Made by a program: the position numbers and the translations under genes
Notes under the pieces: model-generated
Seen by the model: the letters and a program-made list of their open reading frames with translations, nothing else
What the model was told of the DNA's origin: nothing
Databases searched by the model: none
Assembly: GCA_964517415.1 (NCBI GenBank)
Contig: CAZFCA010000002.1
Coordinates: forward strand, 47,288-111,287
Length of the DNA stretch: 64,000 nt
Reading direction: 5' to 3'
Source: an uncultured Rhodospirillaceae bacterium
GTDB taxonomy: Bacteria > Pseudomonadota > Alphaproteobacteria > UBA9219
Shown here: in pieces, positions 1 to 63,877 of the stretch
Layout: every line of letters begins with the position of its first letter
Position numbering within the stretch: position 1 is the first letter of the stretch

Positions 1-846
1 CCGGCCAAACTTAATTTGTACCTTCATATTACCGGCAGAAGGCCGGACGGCTATCACGATCTGGACAGCCTAGTCGCCTTCGCGTCCATCGGCGACGAGG
101 TCGCTTTGCGGCCGGCTAAAAAATTCCGGTTCGAGATAACCGGCGATCAGGCCGCGGCATTGGAAAACGAGGACAGCGAGACAAACCTCGTTGTGAAAGC
201 CGCGCGGTCTTTGTCAGAGCTGACGGGCAAGCCGCTTGACGTTCATATCGCGCTGGTGAAAAACCTGCCCGTTGCTTCGGGAATCGGCGGCGGGTCCAGC
301 GACGCGGCTGCGGTTTTACGCGCCTTGGCGCAGCATTGGGGTTTGGACAAAAACGATCCGCGCATCGCCCGCGCCGCCGCGCTGCATGGGCAGGATGTTC
401 CCGTTTGTCTGCGCATCGAAAACACCTATATGACGGCGACGGGCGTCTTGCCGTCGGAAAAGATGCCGTTGGCGCATATCGTGCTGGTCAATCCGGGCAA
501 GGGGTTGCCAACCCCTGCCGTTTACAAGGATTTCCGTGAAAAAGGTGACGCCTTTTCGCCGCTTCGTCGGTTTGAAAAAACGCCGGAGACTGTTGAAGAA
601 TTTATTTCGGCGTTGAAGGCCAGGCGTAACGATTTATGTGCGCCTGCGCAGCGGTTGATGCCGGAGATTGCCGAGATCATCGCGGCCTTGGAGGCGTCGG
701 ACGAATGCCTTTTGGCTCGCATGTCCGGCAGCGGTGCGACGTGTTTCGGCCTTTATGCCGATGCCACGGCGGCGAAATCTATCGCTGTTCAACTTCAGGC
801 CTATCGCCCACGATGGTGGATTAAGGCCGGGGTTATAAACGATTAG
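1..846 (+). CDS. ispE: 4-diphosphocytidyl-2-C-methyl-D-erythritol kinase IspE, 5'-truncated by the window edge. The reading frame opens at base 1.
   Basis: Translation from nt 1 reads PAKLNLYLHITGRRPDGYH, matching the IspE N-terminus. The GHMP-kinase glycine-rich motif PVASGIGGGSSDAAA is present. The track ORF 16-846 begins with TTG. Confidence 0.85.
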   Translation, partial: PAKLNLYLHITGRRPDGYHDLDSLVAFASIGDEVALRPAKKFRFEITGDQAAALENEDSETNLVVKAARSLSELTGKPLDVHIALVKNLPVASGIGGGSSDAAAVLRALAQHWGLDKNDPRIARAAALHGQDVPVCLRIENTYMTATGVLPSEKMPLAHIVLVNPGKGLPTPAVYKDFREKGDAFSPLRRFEKTPETVEEFISALKARRNDLCAPAQRLMPEIAEIIAALEASDECLLARMSGSGATCFGLYADATAAKSIAVQLQAYRPRWWIKAGVIND

Positions 847-21347: not shown

Positions 21348-21761
21348 TTAGTGAATGCTTGGAATTGTTTTATGGGAAAGAAAGCGTTCGATATAATCGC
21401 TGATTTCTTCCCTGTTGAACGGTTTTGTGAAATAACCGTCAGCATGGATCTGCGAAGCGGCTTCTTTTGCTTCGGTGAAGTCGTTTAAGGTTGCCATGAC
21501 GACGTAGGTCTGCGGGCTGCTTTCTTTGATTCTGCGCGCAAGCTCCAAACCGTCCCCGTCGGGAAGCCTTATGTCGAGAAAAACCAGATCGGGCTTTTTG
21601 CTTGTAAATAGATCCCAGCCGTCTTTGGCTCTTGATGCAGGATAGACGAGATACTGGTCGCGAAGGGCCAGACGGAAAAGCTCTCTTTGGATATCGTTGT
21701 CTTCAACGACGAGAATGCGTATTTTTTGAAGTTTCTGAAAAGGATGTTGCGTTGCTGTCAT
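21348..21761 (-). CDS. single-domain response regulator (CheY-like receiver only)
   Basis: 137 aa. Receiver (REC) domain residues present are the acidic pair VEDND, the phospho-acceptor Asp in VFLDIRLPDGDG, and the Thr and Lys in TKPF. It is a paralog of the receiver at 28745-29158. Confidence 0.85.
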   Translation of the reverse strand: MTATQHPFQKLQKIRILVVEDNDIQRELFRLALRDQYLVYPASRAKDGWDLFTSKKPDLVFLDIRLPDGDGLELARRIKESSPQTYVVMATLNDFTEAKEAASQIHADGYFTKPFNREEISDYIERFLSHKTIPSIH

Positions 21762-27626: not shown

Positions 27627-28748
27627 ATGGCGACTCTGGCGCGGTCGGACAGGTCTATTTTGGGGCGATGGTGGTGGACCGTCGACCGCTGGGCGTTGGC
27701 GGCCATTGTCGTCATTATGGGTTTCGGCATTCTGCTCATTCAGGCGTCCACGCCCGCCATTGCGGCCAAACACGGGTGGAGCCATCTCTATTTCGTCGAG
27801 AGGCATTTAGCCATGCTGCTGCCCGCCGTGGCGGTGATCTTTTCCGTTTCTCTTTTGTCGCCGCAAAAGATCCGCGTTCTTTCCGCGGCGTTGCTGACTT
27901 TGTTCCTGCCGCTTTTGATGATAACGCCTTTCATCGGGGCCGAGATCAAGGGCGCCGTAAGGTGGCTTCAACTGCCCGGGTTTTCGATTCAGGCTTCCGA
28001 GTTTGTAAAACCCGTGTTCGCCGTTACTGCCGCGTGGCTTTTTACGCGCCAATGTGAGCGGCGCGGTTTTCCTGCGCTGAGCGTCAATCTAAGCCTTTAC
28101 CTTCTGATTTTAGTTTTTTTGTTGTTGCAGCCGGACATCGGCATGGCTTTTCTTGTTTCCGCCATTTGGTTCGGCCAATATTTTCTTGCCGGATTGCCGG
28201 TGGCTTTCGTCGGGATAAGCCTGTTTGGCGGAATCGCGTCGCTTGTCGCCGCTTATTACGCTTTCCCGCATTTTTCGGCGCGCATGGATAAATTCCTTAG
28301 CCATACGGGCGATACCTATCAGGTTGATCGTGCGCTCAGCGCGTTTGCGAACGGAGGCTGGCTGGGAACGGGGCCGGGCGAAGGCACGATCAAAAGGTCC
28401 ATTCCCGATGCGCACGCCGATTTTATTTTTGCGGTAGCAGGCGAAGAGCTGGGACTGCTTTGGTGCCTGCTTATTATCGGCCTGTTTGCCTTTATCGTTT
28501 TAAGAGGCCTTCTGCGCCTGAAGTCGGAAAACAGCCTTTTCATTGTTCTGGCCGTGAGCGGGCTTCTTGTCGAATTTGGGTTGCAGACCGTTATTAATCT
28601 GACTTCGACTATGCGCCTTATGCCCGCGAAGGGAATGACGCTGCCGTTCATTTCCTATGGAGGGTCGTCTCTTTTCGCCTTGGCCATCGGCATGGGGATG
28701 ATGCTCGCGCTGACAAGAAAGCGCTTTGGTTTGACGGGAAGGAATTAG
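27627..28748 (+). CDS. ftsW: peptidoglycan glycosyltransferase FtsW (SEDS family)
   Basis: 373 aa with 10 TM helices. SEDS motifs are present, including DFIF and the GxGG region. Confidence 0.9.
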   Translation: MATLARSDRSILGRWWWTVDRWALAAIVVIMGFGILLIQASTPAIAAKHGWSHLYFVERHLAMLLPAVAVIFSVSLLSPQKIRVLSAALLTLFLPLLMITPFIGAEIKGAVRWLQLPGFSIQASEFVKPVFAVTAAWLFTRQCERRGFPALSVNLSLYLLILVFLLLQPDIGMAFLVSAIWFGQYFLAGLPVAFVGISLFGGIASLVAAYYAFPHFSARMDKFLSHTGDTYQVDRALSAFANGGWLGTGPGEGTIKRSIPDAHADFIFAVAGEELGLLWCLLIIGLFAFIVLRGLLRLKSENSLFIVLAVSGLLVEFGLQTVINLTSTMRLMPAKGMTLPFISYGGSSLFALAIGMGMMLALTRKRFGLTGRN

Positions 28749-29158
28749 CAAGCGTTCTTCGTCTTGCTTTCCCAATAACGATCTATCGCCTCGCCAATTT
28801 TTGCCTTGTCGAAAGGTTTGGTGATGAATCCGTCCGTGTGGTTAAAAGCTGCTTCTTCGCGATCTGCGGAATAATCGTTGCCTGTGGCCATGATGACATA
28901 GGTGCCTTGGTTATCTTTTTTGATGCGATAGGCAAGGTCGTGTCCTGTGCCGTCCGGAAGGGAAATATCCAAAAAGGCGATATTGGGACGGACCTTTTTA
29001 TACATCTCCCATCCCTCTTTAACAGTGGCGGCCAGCGCGATGGTATGTTCGCTCTCAAAGAGATTTAGAAAAATTTTTCTAATGAAGGCGCTATCCTCGA
29101 CGACAAGAAGACGCAAGGCGGGGCGCACCGGCGTTGATTTGATTTTTTCTTCAACCAT
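28745..29158 (-). CDS. single-domain response regulator (receiver only)
   Basis: 137 aa. It is a paralog of 21348-21761, with the aligned segments LVVEDSAFIRKIF...AFLDISLPDGTG...TKPF. It is convergent with ftsW and overlaps it by 4 bp. Confidence 0.85.
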   Translation of the reverse strand: MVEEKIKSTPVRPALRLLVVEDSAFIRKIFLNLFESEHTIALAATVKEGWEMYKKVRPNIAFLDISLPDGTGHDLAYRIKKDNQGTYVIMATGNDYSADREEAAFNHTDGFITKPFDKAKIGEAIDRYWESKTKNAC

Positions 29159-56234: not shown

Positions 56235-56298
56235 GCTTATCGCTTGCTGGGCATCACTATGGATTCCAGTGGCTTAATAAGTCCAGCGAGCGATAAGC
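56235..56298. repeat. long imperfect inverted repeat (hairpin with a 16-bp stem and one mismatch) in the intergenic region upstream of the sensor kinase
   Basis: GCTTATCGCTTGCTGG at 56235-56250 pairs with CCAGCGAGCGATAAGC at 56283-56298, across a 32-nt loop. Confidence 0.5.
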
Positions 56299-56443: not shown

Positions 56444-58957
56444 ATGTCCGCAATTATCGTTCTTAACGAAAACAAGTGCGTTGGATGCAACAAATGCATC
56501 GCTCATTGCCCTGTCGAGGGGGCTAATGTCGCGTATCTGAAGGACGGCCAGAATAAAGTTCGCACGAATTCCCACAAATGCATCCTTTGCGGAAAATGCA
56601 TTGCCGTTTGCGATCATGGCGCGCGCGACTATTACGACGGAACGGACGCCTTTTTCGACGCTTTGGCGCAAGGCGAGAAGATATCGGTCATAGCCGCCCC
56701 TTCGATACGTTTTAATTTCGACAAGTATAAAAAGCTTTTCGGCTTTTTAAAAAGCCGCGGCGTCAATCATATTTATGACGCCTCCTTCGGCGCGGATATA
56801 GCGACGTGGGGTTATCTGAAGGCCATTAAGGAACAGGATTTAAAGTCCGTCATCGCTCAGCCGTGCCCGCCGATAGTCTCGTATATCGAAAAGCATTGCC
56901 CGGAACTGATCGAAAAATTATCCCCTGTGCAAAGCCCCGCGCTTTGCACGGCCATCTATATGAGGAAGCACAAAAACATTTCAGATAAACTGGCTTTTAT
57001 CTCTCCGTGCCTCAGCAAAACCCAGGAATTCGCCGACACGGACAACGTGGTTTCATATAACGTCACCTATAATAAGTTGACGCAATATATGGCCAAGCAA
57101 AAACTGCGCTGCGACATGCAGGTTGAAATGGATTTTGACAGCGAGGAATGCGGGCTGGGGTTGACTTTTTCCCGCCCGGGGGGGCTGAGCGAAAACATCC
57201 ATTATCATACGAAAGGCCAGGCATGGGTCAGACAAATCGAAGGAATTGATAAAGTTTACGATTATCTGGAGGAGTACGCGAAAAGAAAAAAAGACGGGAA
57301 GAAACTGCCGCTTATACTGGATATCCTAAACTGTTCTCACGGGTGCAACATCGGGAACGCGACGTGCCAAACCGCTTGTGTCGACGATGTCGATGAGAAA
57401 ATGCAATGGCTTAAAGAGGAAAAACTAAAAAATGCGGAAAAGGAAAAATTCGGACGCATCGTTTACAGTCTGTTCGAAAAATTCGACAAGGAATTGGATT
57501 GGAGGGATTTTGTTCGCCGTTATGAAGATAAATCCGATTCTCCCGAAGAACAGCGGTTTTTGCCGATTGAATACGATGCCGTCTATAAAACGCTTTACAA
57601 AAACGATCAGGCTAGCCGCAATGTGAACTGTATTTCCTGTGGCTATGGAAATTGCCGCGATTTCGCCACCGCCATATTGAAAGGGGACAATCACCCGGGA
57701 AACTGCATCCGCTATAACAGCGCCATGACGAATGAAGAGCGGCAAAAGAAGGAAGAGAATTTTAGAATAGCCATTGAAAACGCCAACATAGCCAATCGGG
57801 CAAAATCCGAATTTCTGGCCAATATGTCGCACGAGCTAAGAACGCCCTTAAACAGCATTTTGGGAATGAACAAGCTTTTGCAGGGCATGAATCTGTCGGA
57901 AGATCAAAAGGGCCTGATTGACGTGATGTACCGTTCGTCGGTGAATTTGCTGGATCTTGTCAACGATATTCTGGATCTTTCCAAGATCGAAGCCGGCAAG
58001 ATGAGCCTTGAGCGCATCGGGTTCGATCCGGCGTATGTTCTTGATGGCGTCATACATGCAATGAATCCTTTGGCGGACGAAAAGCTGCTGCGGATCGTGA
58101 CTCATTATAACGAAGGAGATTTTCCCTATGTGCTCGGTGATCCTGCGCGTCTTTTGCGCATTTTAATGAATTTGGTCGGGAACGCGGTAAAATACACGGA
58201 AAAGGGACGCGTAGACATCGCCGCTTCATCCAGACGGCTGGACGATATCCGGGTCGAATTGCGTTTCGAGGTCACGGATACCGGCATCGGCATATCCGAA
58301 GAAAAGCAAAAGGGCATTTTTGAAAAATTTGTCCAAGCCGATACGTCAACGACCCGCAAATACGGAGGAACAGGTTTAGGCCTTGCGATCACGAAGGAAT
58401 TGGTCGAGCTGATGGGCGGCATAATCGGGGTGCGCAGCAAAGAAGATGTCGGATCGACGTTTTGGTTTGCCATTCCTTTCGAAATAACGGACAAGCTGCA
58501 CGAGCAGAAATACATGCGTGCTCAAAAAATGCTTCTAGGAACGATTCTGCCTCAGAAGGCGAACATCCTAGTCGCCGAAGACCATCCGTTAAATCAAATC
58601 CTTGTAAGGAAATTGCTTCAAAAATTCGGCATTGGGCATTTTAAAATTGTCGAAAACGGTCAAGAAGTCGTCGATGTTTGGAAGCAGGAAAGCTGGGACG
58701 TTATTCTAATGGACTGTCATATGCCGAAGAAAAGCGGCTATGATGCGACGGAAGAAATACGGCAACTGGAAAAGGAAACAGGGGCGCATACTCCCGTCGT
58801 TGCCATGACCGCGAACGCCATGATCGGAGATCGGGAAAAATGCCTTCGGTGCGGCATGGACGAATATATCAGCAAGCCGATAAACTTTGACGAACTGCAA
58901 AAAATATTAGGCCAATGGATTCACTTGGCCAGCGCGCCGGAAGAGGCGATTAGCTGA
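56444..58957 (+). CDS. hybrid sensor histidine kinase with an N-terminal sensory [FeFe]-hydrogenase-like (HydS-type) domain: 2x[4Fe-4S] ferredoxin motifs, H-cluster domain, Cx2Cx4Cx16C motif, HisKA, HATPase_c, REC
   Basis: The two ferredoxin motifs are CVGCNKCIAHCP and CILCGKCIAVCD. The H-domain motifs read AQPCPPI for TSCCPGW, SPCLSKTQE for MPCxxKxxE, and ILNCSHGCNIG for ExMxCxxGC. A CISCGYGNC-x16-C motif follows. The H-box is MSHELRTPLN. The HATPase N and G boxes read NLVGNAVKYT, DTGIGI and GGTGLGL. The C-terminal receiver has the phospho-acceptor Asp in ILMDCHMP. The first ATG is at 56444; the track start at 56414 is TTG. Confidence 0.8.
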   Translation: MSAIIVLNENKCVGCNKCIAHCPVEGANVAYLKDGQNKVRTNSHKCILCGKCIAVCDHGARDYYDGTDAFFDALAQGEKISVIAAPSIRFNFDKYKKLFGFLKSRGVNHIYDASFGADIATWGYLKAIKEQDLKSVIAQPCPPIVSYIEKHCPELIEKLSPVQSPALCTAIYMRKHKNISDKLAFISPCLSKTQEFADTDNVVSYNVTYNKLTQYMAKQKLRCDMQVEMDFDSEECGLGLTFSRPGGLSENIHYHTKGQAWVRQIEGIDKVYDYLEEYAKRKKDGKKLPLILDILNCSHGCNIGNATCQTACVDDVDEKMQWLKEEKLKNAEKEKFGRIVYSLFEKFDKELDWRDFVRRYEDKSDSPEEQRFLPIEYDAVYKTLYKNDQASRNVNCISCGYGNCRDFATAILKGDNHPGNCIRYNSAMTNEERQKKEENFRIAIENANIANRAKSEFLANMSHELRTPLNSILGMNKLLQGMNLSEDQKGLIDVMYRSSVNLLDLVNDILDLSKIEAGKMSLERIGFDPAYVLDGVIHAMNPLADEKLLRIVTHYNEGDFPYVLGDPARLLRILMNLVGNAVKYTEKGRVDIAASSRRLDDIRVELRFEVTDTGIGISEEKQKGIFEKFVQADTSTTRKYGGTGLGLAITKELVELMGGIIGVRSKEDVGSTFWFAIPFEITDKLHEQKYMRAQKMLLGTILPQKANILVAEDHPLNQILVRKLLQKFGIGHFKIVENGQEVVDVWKQESWDVILMDCHMPKKSGYDATEEIRQLEKETGAHTPVVAMTANAMIGDREKCLRCGMDEYISKPINFDELQKILGQWIHLASAPEEAIS

Positions 58958-59708
58958 CCCTGGCGATCACCGGCATTAAGTTGAGCGCCTCGCGATTTCG
59001 CATAAAGCGCAGTTTTTCGGTTGAACCGTCTTCGTAAAGACCGACCAACGCTTCGCGTTGTGTTAAGGAAATGATGGCCGGAAAATCCGCAATGGGATCC
59101 ACTTCGTCGGCGCAAATTTCTTCGGCCAAATCGAAGCCGAACGACGGCTTTTGAAAAATAAACCTTGGGTGCTTGTCCGAAGGATCATATGCGGCGGCCA
59201 CGATACCGAAGCCTTGATGGGCGAAAACATCCCAACTGCGCTTGTTGCCGACGGAAATTTGCGCAAAGGCGTGGCGGCATATTTGAGTAAAGGGAAGTTC
59301 TAAAGCGAAGGAAACGAGGTGATGGGCGAGACTGTTTCCGCGCCAGTCGGGATGGGAGGCGAGGCTTTTGAAAACGACGACGCTGTCCGTTAAGGCGGCG
59401 TGATGAAAGGCAACGTCGTTATAAGTTATGGCATGCATCGCAAGAGCTTCGCGCAGCGTTAGCGGCCCCATCAAGGCTATATGCGCGACAAGTTTGCCGT
59501 TTGCGCGGATGCCGGCCATTTGCCCTGTCGCGTGCGCAAGAAGATGTTGGAAATAGGCAATATCCCTTTGCAAAATGAAATGCTTTTTATCCGAAGGCAG
59601 CGCGTCGCGCGCAGCGTTCTGTAGGGAGAGAACGTCCGTCAAGTCGGCTTCGCCGAGAACCAAAAGGCGGGCAGGGGTCCCGTTGATCGGAAGTAAAAAG
59701 TCTTTCAT
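58950..59708 (-). CDS. GNAT-family acetyltransferase-like protein with a C-terminal extension
   Basis: 252 aa. The putative acetyl-CoA motif is HPDWRGNSLAHHL. The assignment is weak. Confidence 0.4.
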   Translation of the reverse strand: MKDFLLPINGTPARLLVLGEADLTDVLSLQNAARDALPSDKKHFILQRDIAYFQHLLAHATGQMAGIRANGKLVAHIALMGPLTLREALAMHAITYNDVAFHHAALTDSVVVFKSLASHPDWRGNSLAHHLVSFALELPFTQICRHAFAQISVGNKRSWDVFAHQGFGIVAAAYDPSDKHPRFIFQKPSFGFDLAEEICADEVDPIADFPAIISLTQREALVGLYEDGSTEKLRFMRNREALNLMPVIARVS

Positions 59709-63172: not shown

Positions 63173-63877
63173 ATGCCCCAGCACATAGCCCTTGTTGACG
63201 ATGATCGCAACATCCTGACCTCCGTGCAGATGGCGCTTGAGGCCGAAGGCTTTAACATTCGCACTTATTCGGATGGGGACGAAGCCCTGAAAGGGTTGAC
63301 TCAACAGCCGGCCGATTTGGCCGTTTTGGATATTAAAATGCCGCGCTTGAACGGCATCGAATTGCTCCAGCGATTGCGCCAGAATAATTCGACGAGCCAC
63401 ATGCCGGTTATTTTCCTTACGTCGAAAGATGACGAGATCGACGAAATCATGGGGCTGCGCATGGGCGCGGACGATTATATCAAAAAGCCTTTTTCGCAGC
63501 GGCTGCTTGTGGAGCGCATTCGTTCGCTTTTGCGGCGGGAGCAGGCGCGCCAGCAACCGTCCATCAACGATCCAAACGCCATGCTAGTGCGCGGCGATAT
63601 GGTTTTAGACAGCGCGCGGCATGTCTGCGCTTGGAAAGGCAAGGCCGTCGAATTGACGGTGACGGAATTTCTGCTTGTGAAGGCGTTGGCTCAACGTCCG
63701 GGACACGTTAAAAACCGAGATCAATTAATGGACGCCGCCTACGGCGAAGCCATATGCGTCGATGATCGCACGATTGACAGCCATATCAAGCGGCTTCGGA
63801 AAAAGTTTAAAGATATAGATCCCGATTTTTCGCAAATCGAAACGCTGTATGGCGTTGGATATCGCTATAAGGAATAA
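63173..63877 (+). CDS. chvI: OmpR-family two-component response regulator ChvI
   Basis: The N-terminus [15 protein letters not shown] is typical of ChvI. The receiver plus winged-helix organisation matches ChvI, with the winged-helix segment [27 protein letters not shown]. Confidence 0.8.

What the first reader, a model, noticed from the sequence alone, without database searches (positions are those of the whole stretch)
56444..58957. Single-polypeptide sensory [FeFe]-hydrogenase-like domain fused to a hybrid histidine kinase (HisKA-HATPase-REC)
Seen directly: the N-terminal 430 residues align motif-by-motif with the H-domain of [FeFe] hydrogenases such as CpI. The shared features include FGAD and two N-terminal ferredoxin CxxCxxCxxxC(P) motifs. 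In motif L1, TSCCPGW becomes AQPCPPI: the proton-transfer Cys is replaced by Pro, and the cubane-ligating Cys is kept. In L2, MPCxxKxxE becomes SPCLSKTQE. In L3, ExMxCxxGCxxG becomes ILNCSHGCNIG. All four Cys that bind the [4Fe-4S]H subcluster are therefore present, including the bridging Cys. A C-terminal Cx2Cx4Cx16C motif follows; the spacing is exact: CISCGYGNC, 16 residues, C. Established knowledge: a lost proton-transfer Cys plus an extra Cx2Cx4Cx16C cluster motif is the hallmark of Group C putative sensory hydrogenases such as Thermotoga maritima HydS. Those normally carry a PAS domain and signal in trans. Here the module is fused directly to an H-box (MSHELRTPLN), a complete HATPase_c domain and a C-terminal receiver. 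That would make a one-component H2- or redox-sensing phosphorelay, in an alphaproteobacterial background where [FeFe] hydrogenases are rare. No hydrogenase or maturase gene is in the window.
Basis: partly seen in the sequence, partly recalled or inferred. Interest (0 to 1): 0.85.

Follow-up and report, generated by a model that had tools for sequence, protein, structure and literature searches.

The report
Hydrogenase-like sensor fused to histidine kinase
This gene encodes a soluble signalling kinase whose input is a complete hydrogenase-like iron-sulfur module, most likely a hydrogen-gas sensor; such fusions are common in public sequence data but none has been studied, so it is an ordinary member of an interesting, untested class.

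Summary
ORF 56444-58957 (+) encodes an 837-aa protein: two ferredoxin-type clusters, an [FeFe]-hydrogenase H-domain (Pfam 2.4e-24), a Cx2Cx4Cx16C cluster domain, then HisKA, HATPase_c and a receiver. All four H-cluster cysteines, K358, E361 and the CN-binding Ala-Pro are present and nearly invariant in 179 relatives. The proton-relay Cys is Pro.

The fusion is not exceptional. The ~435-aa module is a promiscuous signalling input. Among the 150 best cluster representatives, about 46 carry a kinase, 52 an MCP domain, 24 GGDEF and 4 PP2C. HydDB already names putative sensory subgroups C1-C3. This module is only 27% identical to TamHydS (HydDB C1 / Group D) and groups with MCP-fused proteins.

New evidence favours a true H-cluster. 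In four of the eight closest genome loci, hydF (with aspA) or hydE and hydG sit beside the sensor. The sister Rhodospirillaceae MAG carrying the 86% ortholog also encodes HydF. A HydF contig co-occurs with the window's gene in three of four runs.

A predicted continuous helix links the last cluster cysteine (C421) to the phospho-accepting His463.

Verdict: a new member of a known but uncharacterised kind. H2 sensing is inferred, not shown.

The parts
56444..58957 (+). Whole gene: an 837-aa soluble hybrid sensor histidine kinase with an [FeFe]-hydrogenase-like input module
   Evidence: ORF. Domains. An identical protein is in public assemblies. An 86% ortholog sits in the same gene neighbourhood in MAG GCA_964453225.1.
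56456..56623 (+). F-domain (aa 5-60): two ferredoxin-type [4Fe-4S] motifs, using C12, C15, C18, C22 and C46, C49, C52, C56
   Evidence: Pfam Fer4_10, Fer4_7 and Fer4. All eight Cys are about 100% conserved in 179 modules.
56678..57355 (+). H-domain (aa 79-304), the [FeFe]-hydrogenase large-subunit fold
   Evidence: Pfam PF02906, 2.4e-24. PDB sequence matches. Foldseek matches to TmHydA, CbA5H, DdH and CpI.
56855..56872 (+). Motif L1, AQPCPP (aa 138-143). Pro140 replaces the proton-relay Cys (CpI C299). Cys141 is the cubane ligand (CpI C300).
   Evidence: Alignment to TmHydA. In the family, Cys141 is 179/179. Pro140 is 122/122 in non-HK (mostly MCP-type) modules and 39/57 in HK-type modules.
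57002..57028 (+). Motif L2, SPCLSKTQE (aa 187-195). Ser187 stands at CpI M353; Cys189 = C355, Lys192 = K358, Glu195 = E361.
   Evidence: S187, C189, K192 and E195 are invariant in 179 modules. The same M353-to-Ser change occurs in TamHydS.
57320..57355 (+). Motif L3, DILNCSHGCNIG (aa 293-304). Leu295 stands at CpI M497; Cys297 = C499; Cys301 = C503, the bridging Cys.
   Evidence: C297, G300, C301 and G304 are invariant, and L295 is about 98% conserved.
57623..57709 (+). C-terminal cluster domain (aa 394-422): C396-x2-C399-x4-C404-x16-C421
   Evidence: Pfam PF04060, 28.3 bits against a cut-off of 23. The four Cys are about 100% conserved. It aligns collinearly with the TamHydS C-terminal cluster motif.
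57707..57883 (+). Continuous signalling helix (aa 422-480). It starts right after Cys421, passes the module joint at about aa 431, and continues into DHp helix 1 with His463.
   Evidence: DSSP on the AlphaFold2 model gives H422-480. Similarity to Cache/MHYT hybrid kinases starts at aa 431-432.
57800..57997 (+). HisKA/DHp domain (aa 453-518), with phospho-accepting His463 in MSHELRTPLN
   Evidence: Pfam PF00512, 1.1e-21. Position.
58136..58483 (+). HATPase_c catalytic domain (aa 565-680), with N-box Asn580, G1 box DTGIGI at 612, and G2 box GGTGLGL at 641
   Evidence: Pfam PF02518, 2.5e-29. Motifs.
58565..58906 (+). Receiver domain (aa 708-821), with Glu712/Asp713, phospho-accepting Asp757, Thr789 and Lys811
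   Evidence: Pfam PF00072, 7.5e-27. Residues.

Best explanation
The gene encodes a cytoplasmic hybrid histidine kinase. No transmembrane segment is apparent: the sensor module starts at residue 1.

Its input is a complete sensory-type [FeFe]-hydrogenase module: two accessory [4Fe-4S] clusters, an H-domain with the full H-cluster binding site, and a C-terminal [4Fe-4S] domain.

Proposed mechanism:
1. (Inferred) The HydE/HydF/HydG maturases load the module with the di-iron subcluster.
2. (Inferred) H2 binding and slow heterolysis at the H-cluster change the redox or conformational state of the module. Turnover would be slow because the proton-relay Cys is Pro.
3. (Geometry predicted, function inferred) That change is passed through the single helix running from cluster ligand Cys421 to His463, and alters autophosphorylation.
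4. (Residues shown, transfer inferred) The phosphoryl group goes to the protein's own Asp757.
5. (Inferred) From there it passes to a separately encoded Hpt protein or response regulator. That partner has not been identified.

The module is a portable input domain. Relatives couple it to MCP, kinase, GGDEF/EAL and PP2C outputs. In this protein the transmitter half was taken from a Cache/MHYT-type alphaproteobacterial hybrid kinase.
For: - Architecture and fold.
- H-cluster pocket is under strong constraint: four Cys, K358, E361, Ala-Pro, Ser at 353 and Leu at 497 are about 98-100% conserved in 179 modules, whatever the output.
- Modular input: the match spans residues ~1-435 in nearly all of the top 150 representatives. 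Outputs are about 46 HK, 52 MCP, 24 GGDEF, 9 EAL and 4 SpoIIE.
- Maturase linkage, verified above NCBIfam cut-offs: sensor-HK then aspA then hydF in L009/L015, L012 and L016; hydE and hydG beside the sensor-MCP in L007/L013.
- HydF in the same MAG as the 86% ortholog.
- A HydF contig with the same synteny occurs in three of the four runs that hold the window's gene.
- Characterised relatives with the same module layout (TamHydS, TmHydS) bind an H-cluster and react with H2.
- Helix 422-480.
- Kinase and receiver catalytic residues are intact.
- Transmitter replacement: residues 431-837 are 62-68% identical to Cache/MHYT kinases, against 35-48% to the transmitters of its own sensor clade.
Against: - No experiment exists for any HK- or MCP-fused member. 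I found no paper describing one.
- hydE and hydG were not checked in this lineage. HydF was shown for the sister MAG, and for the window's species only by co-occurrence and synteny. MAG binning can err.
- No maturase lies within the 64-kb window or within 10 kb of the ortholog.
- Pro at the C299 position is not found in either characterised sensory enzyme (both have Ala). The Group D proton-path Glu (TamHydS E252) appears to be Leu here, so the proton route is unknown.
- In TamHydS the C-terminal cluster is not reduced under 1 atm H2. A simple 'cluster reduction moves the helix' model may therefore be wrong.
- No Hpt protein or cognate regulator was identified.
Confidence: 0.6

Rival explanations
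1. An Fe-S redox or O2 sensor without the di-iron subcluster (Narf/Nar1-like). The H-domain would carry only the [4Fe-4S]H cubane. The kinase would report the cellular redox state or O2 through oxidation or loss of clusters.
For: - No maturase gene in the window or within 10 kb of the ortholog.
- The proton-relay Cys is lost.
- 16 cluster cysteines make the protein intrinsically sensitive to O2 and redox state.
- hydE and hydG are unverified in this lineage.
Against: - Residues that contact only the di-iron subcluster in CpI are invariant across 179 modules: K358 and the Ala-Pro of the CN-binding loop. That these contact only the subcluster is established knowledge.
- hydF, or hydE and hydG, lie directly beside 4 of the 8 closest sensor loci.
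- HydF is in the sister MAG. HydF has no known role other than H-cluster assembly.
Confidence: 0.2
2. An H-cluster-bearing sensor whose physiological ligand is not H2. The ligand could be CO, or the protein could act as an O2-damage reporter. Both gases react with H-clusters.
For: - H-clusters bind CO and are attacked by O2. TamHydS shows unusual reactivity to CO and O2.
- Nothing in the gene neighbourhood links this gene to H2 metabolism.
Against: - The characterised sensory-type enzymes have low CO affinity but react with H2.
- Family members sit beside hyd maturation genes, not CO-metabolism genes.
Confidence: 0.1
3. A catalytically working hydrogenase that happens to be fused to a kinase. 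Electrons from H2 would be the point of the protein, and the kinase only an accessory.
For: - TamHydS and TmHydS do catalyse slow H+/H2 interconversion.
- The F-domain could exchange electrons with ferredoxin.
Against: - The proton relay Cys299 is replaced by Pro, and M353 and M497 are replaced.
- No Fe_hyd_SSU domain was found.
- Every relative carries a signalling output: MCP, HK, GGDEF or PP2C.
- No redox-partner genes lie nearby.
Confidence: 0.04

Closest known systems
MCP-fused [FeFe]-hydrogenase-like proteins, presumably HydDB '[FeFe] Group C2, chemotactic (putative)'. Examples are the Sporomusa, Rhizomicrobium and Oryzibacter proteins annotated '[Fe-Fe] hydrogenase large subunit C-terminal domain-containing protein'.
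   Same: The whole ~435-aa input module is shared at 49-63% identity. It has the same motifs (AQPCP, SPCxxKxxE, DxLNCxxGCNxG and Cx2Cx4Cx16C). The junction to the output domain lies at the same place.
   Different: The output here is HisKA-HATPase_c-REC, not an MCP signalling domain. The signal would therefore feed a phosphorelay, not the chemotaxis machinery. No HydDB C2 reference sequence could be retrieved to confirm the label.
TamHydS from Thermoanaerobacter mathranii (Group D / M2e; HydDB C1 'histidine kinase-linked')
   Same: Collinear layout: two Fer4 clusters, H-domain and Cx2Cx4Cx16C, with no PAS. M353 is Ser and M497 is Leu. The proton-relay Cys is lost. A sensory role is proposed.
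   Different: Only 27% identical. L1 reads SSACP against AQPCP here. TamHydS has E252 directly after the GG motif, where this protein has Leu248. That register is my inference from the sequence, using the residues named. TamHydS is a stand-alone 435-aa protein with a kinase-like gene as neighbour, not a fusion.
TmHydS from Thermotoga maritima (Group C, M2f, PAS-containing)
   Same: A sensory-type H-domain with two N-terminal clusters and a C-terminal Cx2Cx4Cx16C cluster. The proton-relay Cys is lost.
   Different: TmHydS has a PAS domain after the C-terminal cluster and no kinase. Its pocket residues are Ala, Gly and Ser at CpI positions 299, 353 and 497, against Pro, Ser and Leu here. No PAS domain was found here.
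HoxBC-HoxJ / HupUV-HupT regulatory [NiFe]-hydrogenase with histidine kinase (HydDB [NiFe] Group 2b)
   Same: The logic is the same: a slow hydrogenase acts as H2 receptor for a histidine kinase (established knowledge).
   Different: The metal site and fold are unrelated. There the sensor and kinase are separate polypeptides in a complex. Here they are one chain.
Alphaproteobacterial Cache/MHYT hybrid histidine kinases (for example P0148, P0150, P0179), and the ShkA, GacS and RetS structures
   Same: Residues 431-837 are 62-68% identical to these transmitters. The fold matches ShkA, GacS, RetS and HK853.
   Different: Those kinases have periplasmic or membrane sensor domains and a HAMP domain. 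Here the input is a soluble metallo-sensor.

Membership tests
[FeFe]-hydrogenase H-domain superfamily (Pfam PF02906) | Significant profile match and the same fold | tested here: met
   86.8 bits against a gathering score of 22.1. PDB phmmer 3.7e-18. Foldseek probability 1.00 over about 440 columns to TmHydA, CbA5H, DdH and CpI.
[FeFe]-hydrogenase H-domain superfamily (Pfam PF02906) | Four Cys ligands of the H-cluster (CpI C300, C355, C499, C503), plus K358 and the Ala-Pro of the CN-binding loop | tested here: met
   C141, C189, C297, C301, K192 and A85-P86 are present, and about 100% conserved in 179 modules.
[FeFe]-hydrogenase H-domain superfamily (Pfam PF02906) | Actually binds the [2Fe]H subcluster and reacts with H2 | not testable with these tools
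   Indirect evidence only: HydF in the sister MAG, and maturase genes beside relatives.
Prototypical catalytic Group A [FeFe]-hydrogenase | Proton-relay Cys (C299) in TSCCP; Met353 and Met497; a C-terminal small-subunit-like domain (PF02256) | tested here: not met
   Pro140, Ser187 and Leu295. No PF02256 hit. TIGR04105 scores 126 bits, far below its cut-off of 450.
Group D / M2e (HydDB C1), TamHydS type | Two Fer4 clusters, H-domain and Cx2Cx4Cx16C, without PAS; a hydroxyl residue at M353 | tested here: met
   Collinear alignment over TamHydS residues 7-405. Ser187. No PAS.
Group D / M2e (HydDB C1), TamHydS type | Group-specific proton path (E252 directly after GG, with E289, S249 and D265), and sequence clustering with TamHydS | tested here: not met
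   27% identity, and no collected family member is closer to TamHydS. The GG motif is followed by Leu248, a CpI-like GGxxE register. The residues are named in PMC10407848. The register itself is my inference.
Group C / M2f (TmHydS type) | PAS domain after the C-terminal cluster | tested here: not met
   No PAS family is listed at E <= 1. The helix to the DHp domain starts at residue 422.
HydDB [FeFe] Group C2 'chemotactic' | Clusters with the MCP-linked sensory hydrogenases | tested here: inconclusive
   Nearest relatives of the module are MCP-fused proteins at 49-63% identity. No HydDB C2 reference sequence was obtainable: the table is truncated and Greening 2016 is not held. The output here is a kinase, not an MCP domain.
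Hybrid histidine kinase (HisKA type) | H-box His; N, G1 and G2 boxes; a receiver with the acidic pocket, Asp, Thr and Lys | tested here: met
   Pfam HisKA, HATPase_c and Response_reg. His463, Asn580, the G1 and G2 motifs, Asp757, Thr789 and Lys811.
Hybrid histidine kinase (HisKA type) | An Hpt domain or Hpt partner to complete the phosphorelay | tested here: not met
   No Hpt domain in the protein, and none among the window genes scanned. Many relatives carry PF01627 in the same chain.
Narf/Nar1-like proteins (hydrogenase-like, no di-iron site) | Occurs without HydE/F/G; the pocket does not hold a [2Fe] subcluster | tested here: inconclusive
   HydF is present in the lineage and maturases sit beside relatives, which argues against this. 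hydE and hydG in this genome, and the pocket volume, were not tested.

The most novel reading that the evidence does not exclude
In this Rhodospirillaceae-type lineage the H-cluster may be made chiefly, or only, as a sensory cofactor.

Observations that leave this open:
- hydF sits alone among housekeeping genes.
- In relatives, aspA-hydF or hydE and hydG are coupled to sensor genes.
- No catalytic hydrogenase lies within 10 kb of any of these loci.

The ~435-aa module would then be a general H2 input domain that bacteria plug into every major signalling output: kinase, chemoreceptor, c-di-GMP enzymes and PP2C phosphatase. The kinase fusions would give the first direct biochemical read-out of [FeFe]-based H2 sensing.
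Probability: 0.15. Interest if true: 0.75.

Novelty: new member of a known kind. Interest (0 to 1): 0.45.

Why it matters
Whether Group C and D [FeFe]-hydrogenases really sense H2, and how the signal leaves the protein, is still open. [quoted passage not shown]

A single polypeptide joins the sensor through one helix to a kinase's phospho-accepting His. That gives a simple assay: autophosphorylation under N2, H2, CO or O2. The stand-alone and PAS-type enlzymes lack such a read-out.

The survey made here frames the class as a widespread and unstudied family of gas or redox receptors. It shows many output types on one conserved module, and maturase genes placed beside the sensors.

This particular gene is one ordinary representative, from an uncultured bacterium.

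Tried and rejected
1. The first word-indexed search with the module alone missed the identical protein, so it is not exhaustive. I replaced it with the full-length search and the exhaustive HMMER search.
2. I could not obtain a HydDB C2 reference. The supplementary table is truncated after Group A3 plus one C1 row, and Greening et al. 2016 is not held. The C2 label therefore stays unverified.
3. No full TmHydS sequence was available, only primers. Comparison with Group C rests on published residue identities.
4. BLAST aligned window E250 with TamHydS E252 by opening a two-residue gap. I rejected that equivalence. Anchoring on the GG motif puts Leu248 there, as with Val in CpI. This is an inference from register, not from a structure.
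5. Tetranucleotide and GC comparison of the HydF contigs with the window gives r = 0.96. Other Rhodospirillaceae contigs score the same, so this is used only as 'consistent'.
6. The promoter and terminator scan around the gene found no more than chance.
7. The 'sensor-only use of maturases' idea is weakened. Cultured Rhizomicrobium palustre has hydE-aspA-hydF directly after canonical hydA/hydB/hydC genes.
8. Literature searches for fused HK, MCP or GGDEF hydrogenase sensors returned only HydDB's table and genome notes.
Full report

Yes. An ORF runs from 56414 (TTG) or 56444 (ATG) to 58957 on the + strand. The ATG gives the N-terminus MSAIIVL, which the orthologs share.

Pfam finds six domains, all above their gathering scores:
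- Fer4 dicluster, residues 5-56
- Fe_hyd_lg_C, residues 79-304 (2.4e-24; 86.8 bits against 22.1)
- PF04060 'FeS', residues 394-422
- HisKA, residues 453-518
- HATPase_c, residues 565-680
- Response_reg, residues 708-821

phmmer against all PDB sequences returns [FeFe]-hydrogenases first. Its alignment places AQPCPP under TSCCPA, SPCLSK under MPCTAK, and ILNCSHGC under VMACNYGC. The Cx2Cx4Cx16C spacing is exact: C396, C399, C404, C421.

An AlphaFold2 model built on a 72-sequence alignment has mean pLDDT 90. In Foldseek its N-terminal half matches TmHydA, CbA5H, DdH and CpI over about 440 columns at probability 1.00. Its C-terminal half matches ShkA, GacS, RetS and HK853.

The kinase and receiver have all their catalytic residues: His463, Asn580, the G1 and G2 boxes, Asp757, Thr789 and Lys811.

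**2. What family does the input module belong to?**

An exhaustive HMMER search with residues 1-440 covered 1.84 billion cluster representatives. It gives 589 hits at E <= 1e-30. In nearly all of the best 150 the match spans about residues 1-435 and starts within the first ~30 residues of the hit. The exceptions are fragments and two N-terminally extended proteins. Hit lengths run from 227 to 1693 aa. The three-part unit (two Fer4 clusters, H-domain, C-terminal cluster) therefore behaves as one portable, mostly N-terminal module.

Classifying what follows it in those 150:

| Output | Count |
|---|---|
| Histidine kinase, most with a receiver | about 46 |
| MCP signalling domain | about 52 |
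| GGDEF | 24 |
| EAL | 9 |
| SpoIIE/PP2C | 4 |
| HD-GYP | 1 |
| STAS | 1 |
| Stand-alone or fragment | about 10 |

Across 179 aligned modules the following are essentially invariant whatever the output:
- the four H-cluster cysteines
- Lys192 (CpI K358) and Glu195 (E361)
- Ala85-Pro86 of the CN-binding loop
- Ser187 (at M353) and Leu295 (at M497)
- all eight Fer4 cysteines and all four C-terminal cysteines

Pro140, at the proton-relay Cys position, is present in 122 of 122 non-HK (mostly MCP-type) modules and in 39 of 57 HK-type modules. This is the pattern expected of a cofactor pocket under purifying selection, not of a decaying hydrogenase.

**3. Relation to the named groups**

HydDB lists [FeFe] C1 'histidine kinase-linked', C2 'chemotactic' and C3 'phosphatase-linked', all marked putative. 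HydDB's own table files the Thermoanaerobacter wiegelii ortholog of TamHydS under C1. C1 is therefore Land and Berggren's Group D (M2e), where the kinase-like gene is a neighbour and not a fusion.

I reconstructed TamHydS from a published supplement. It aligns collinearly with the window's module, TamHydS 7-405 against window 5-422, but at only 27% identity. No collected relative is closer to it. The two share Ser at M353 and Leu at M497.

The window's family differs in three ways:
- L1 reads AQPCP, against SSACP in TamHydS.
- L3 reads DxLNCxxGCNxG.
- The Group D proton-path Glu that directly follows the GG motif (E252) seems to be Leu248 here. This is an inference from register.

There is no PAS domain, unlike TmHydS.

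The nearest relatives are MCP-fused proteins at 49-63% identity, from Alphaproteobacteria, Sporomusa and Desulfotomaculum. The module therefore most probably falls in what HydDB calls C2. I could not obtain a C2 reference sequence to prove it.

**4. How this particular fusion arose**

In a neighbour-joining tree of 179 modules, the window's protein and its 86% ortholog sit in a clade of 12 sequences that are all kinase fusions. That clade is nested among MCP fusions. At least five switches between kinase and other outputs are needed across the tree.

Yet residues 431-837 are 62-68% identical to hybrid kinases of Alphaproteobacteria that have Cache or MHYT sensors. They are only 35-48% identical to the transmitters of the protein's own sensor clade. 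The transmitter was therefore replaced.

The joint lies about ten residues after the last cluster cysteine. It falls inside a predicted uninterrupted helix (residues 422-480) that carries His463.

**5. Does the lineage have the H-cluster maturases?**

The window holds only housekeeping genes, two orphan single-domain receivers and a ChvI-like regulator. It has no hydrogenase, maturase or Hpt gene. The 86% ortholog in MAG GCA_964453225.1 (uncultured Rhodospirillaceae) has the same neighbours: ThrRS, VTT/DedA, sensor, GNAT, MiaB.

Relatives tell more.
- In L009/L015, L012 and L016 the order is sensor-kinase, then aspartate ammonia-lyase, then HydF. The genes are on one strand with short gaps.
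- In L007/L013, HydE and HydG flank an MCP-fused sensor. That alphaproteobacterial MAG also has a kinase-fused paralog.
- All assignments exceed NCBIfam cut-offs: HydG 513 against 312, HydE 306 against 255, HydF 514 against 326.
- This amounts to four of the eight genome loci with at least 56% module identity. No locus has a second hydrogenase gene within 10 kb.

I then searched with the Rhodospirillaceae HydF.
- P0351 lies in GCA_964453225.1, on contig CAYVNS010000022.1. That is the same MAG that holds the sensor ortholog.
- P0353 is 84% identical to P0351 and has the same RecO-lactamase-HydF-MurB synteny. It occurs in SRR29243436, SRR29243437 and SRR8925824, three of the four runs that contain the window's exact gene.

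**6. Mechanism**

Shown:
- the architecture
- the intact cofactor ligands
- the intact phosphotransfer residues
- the modularity of the input
- the genomic linkage of the family to maturases

Predicted:
- the helix from Cys421 to His463

Inferred:
- the module carries a true H-cluster
- H2 is the signal
- the state of the module modulates autophosphorylation
- the phosphoryl group passes from Asp757 to an unidentified Hpt protein or regulator

Two cautions apply. In TamHydS the C-terminal cluster is not reduced by 1 atm H2, so the coupling may be conformational and not redox-driven. And the proton exit route here is unknown.

The main rival is an Fe-S-only redox or O2 sensor. It is disfavoured by the invariant residues that contact the di-iron site and by the maturase linkage, but it is not excluded.

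**7. Novelty and score**

The class is known by name (HydDB). Databases annotate these proteins automatically, with names such as 'iron only hydrogenase large subunit-like protein / histidine kinase'. Kinase fusions are one of the two commonest forms.

I found no paper that describes or tests a kinase- or MCP-fused member. Reviews mention only the PAS type.

The window's gene is thus a new member of a known, uncharacterised kind. Its value is as a convenient test object for an open question, not as a surprise.

Cultured Rhizomicrobium palustre has hydE-aspA-hydF directly after canonical hydA/hydB/hydC genes. Alphaproteobacteria with maturases can therefore also have catalytic enzymes, which keeps the 'sensor-only' reading at low probability.

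Noticed in passing
window 21348-21761 (-) and 28745-29158 (-): Two orphan single-domain receiver proteins (CheY-like, 137 aa each; Pfam Response_reg 7.6e-25 and 3.5e-20). Neither has an adjacent kinase. They are conceivable partners of an Hpt-less hybrid kinase, but nothing links them to it.
   Followed up: partly
window 56444-58957, compared with the whole window: The sensor-kinase gene has the lowest GC of the 49 genes of at least 150 aa in the window: 0.477 against a mean of 0.538 (sd 0.025). Both halves are low. The ortholog is also below its own background (0.459 against 0.495 in L001). This may be a trace of foreign, low-GC origin.
   Followed up: partly
window 56235-56250 and 56283-56298: A 16-nt inverted repeat, 94% complementary with 32 nt between the arms. 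It lies in the 272-bp spacer between the DedA/VTT gene and the sensor gene, and is unique in the window. The spacer in the sister MAG is only about 120 bp. It could be a terminator or a regulatory hairpin.
   Followed up: partly
L009/L015 13033-15686; L012 10204-12965; L016 2995-5660: A conserved aspartate ammonia-lyase then hydF gene pair lies directly downstream of sensor-kinase genes in three MAGs. The same aspA-hydF pair follows hydE after canonical hydA/hydB/hydC genes in Rhizomicrobium palustre (L085). The role of the lyase in H-cluster maturation clusters is not explained here.
   Followed up: partly
L079-L083 and L084 (HydF loci): In the window's lineage hydF sits alone between a metallo-beta-lactamase-fold gene and murB, next to recO. 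No other hyd gene lies within the contig, which is an unusually scattered arrangement for a maturase.
   Followed up: no
L016 16-1698 and 1661-2956: The sensor-kinase gene of this Rhodospirillaceae MAG is split into two overlapping ORFs in different frames. This is probably an assembly frameshift, or else a pseudogene.
   Followed up: no
window 58950-59708 (-): A 252-aa GNAT-family gene converges on the sensor gene and overlaps its last 8 bases. The arrangement is conserved in the sister MAG and in the Logan contigs.
   Followed up: no
window 63173-63877 (+); L002 6883-9278: A ChvI/ChvG-like OmpR-type regulator and sensor kinase pair lies about 4 kb downstream. It is typical of Alphaproteobacteria and supports the taxonomic placement. 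It is probably unrelated to the finding.
   Followed up: no
L006/L017 and L007/L013 (MAG GCA_028690155.1): One alphaproteobacterial MAG encodes both a kinase-fused and an MCP-fused paralog of the sensor module. Only the MCP-fused one sits beside hydE and hydG. One organism may therefore route the same signal to both gene regulation and chemotaxis.
   Followed up: partly
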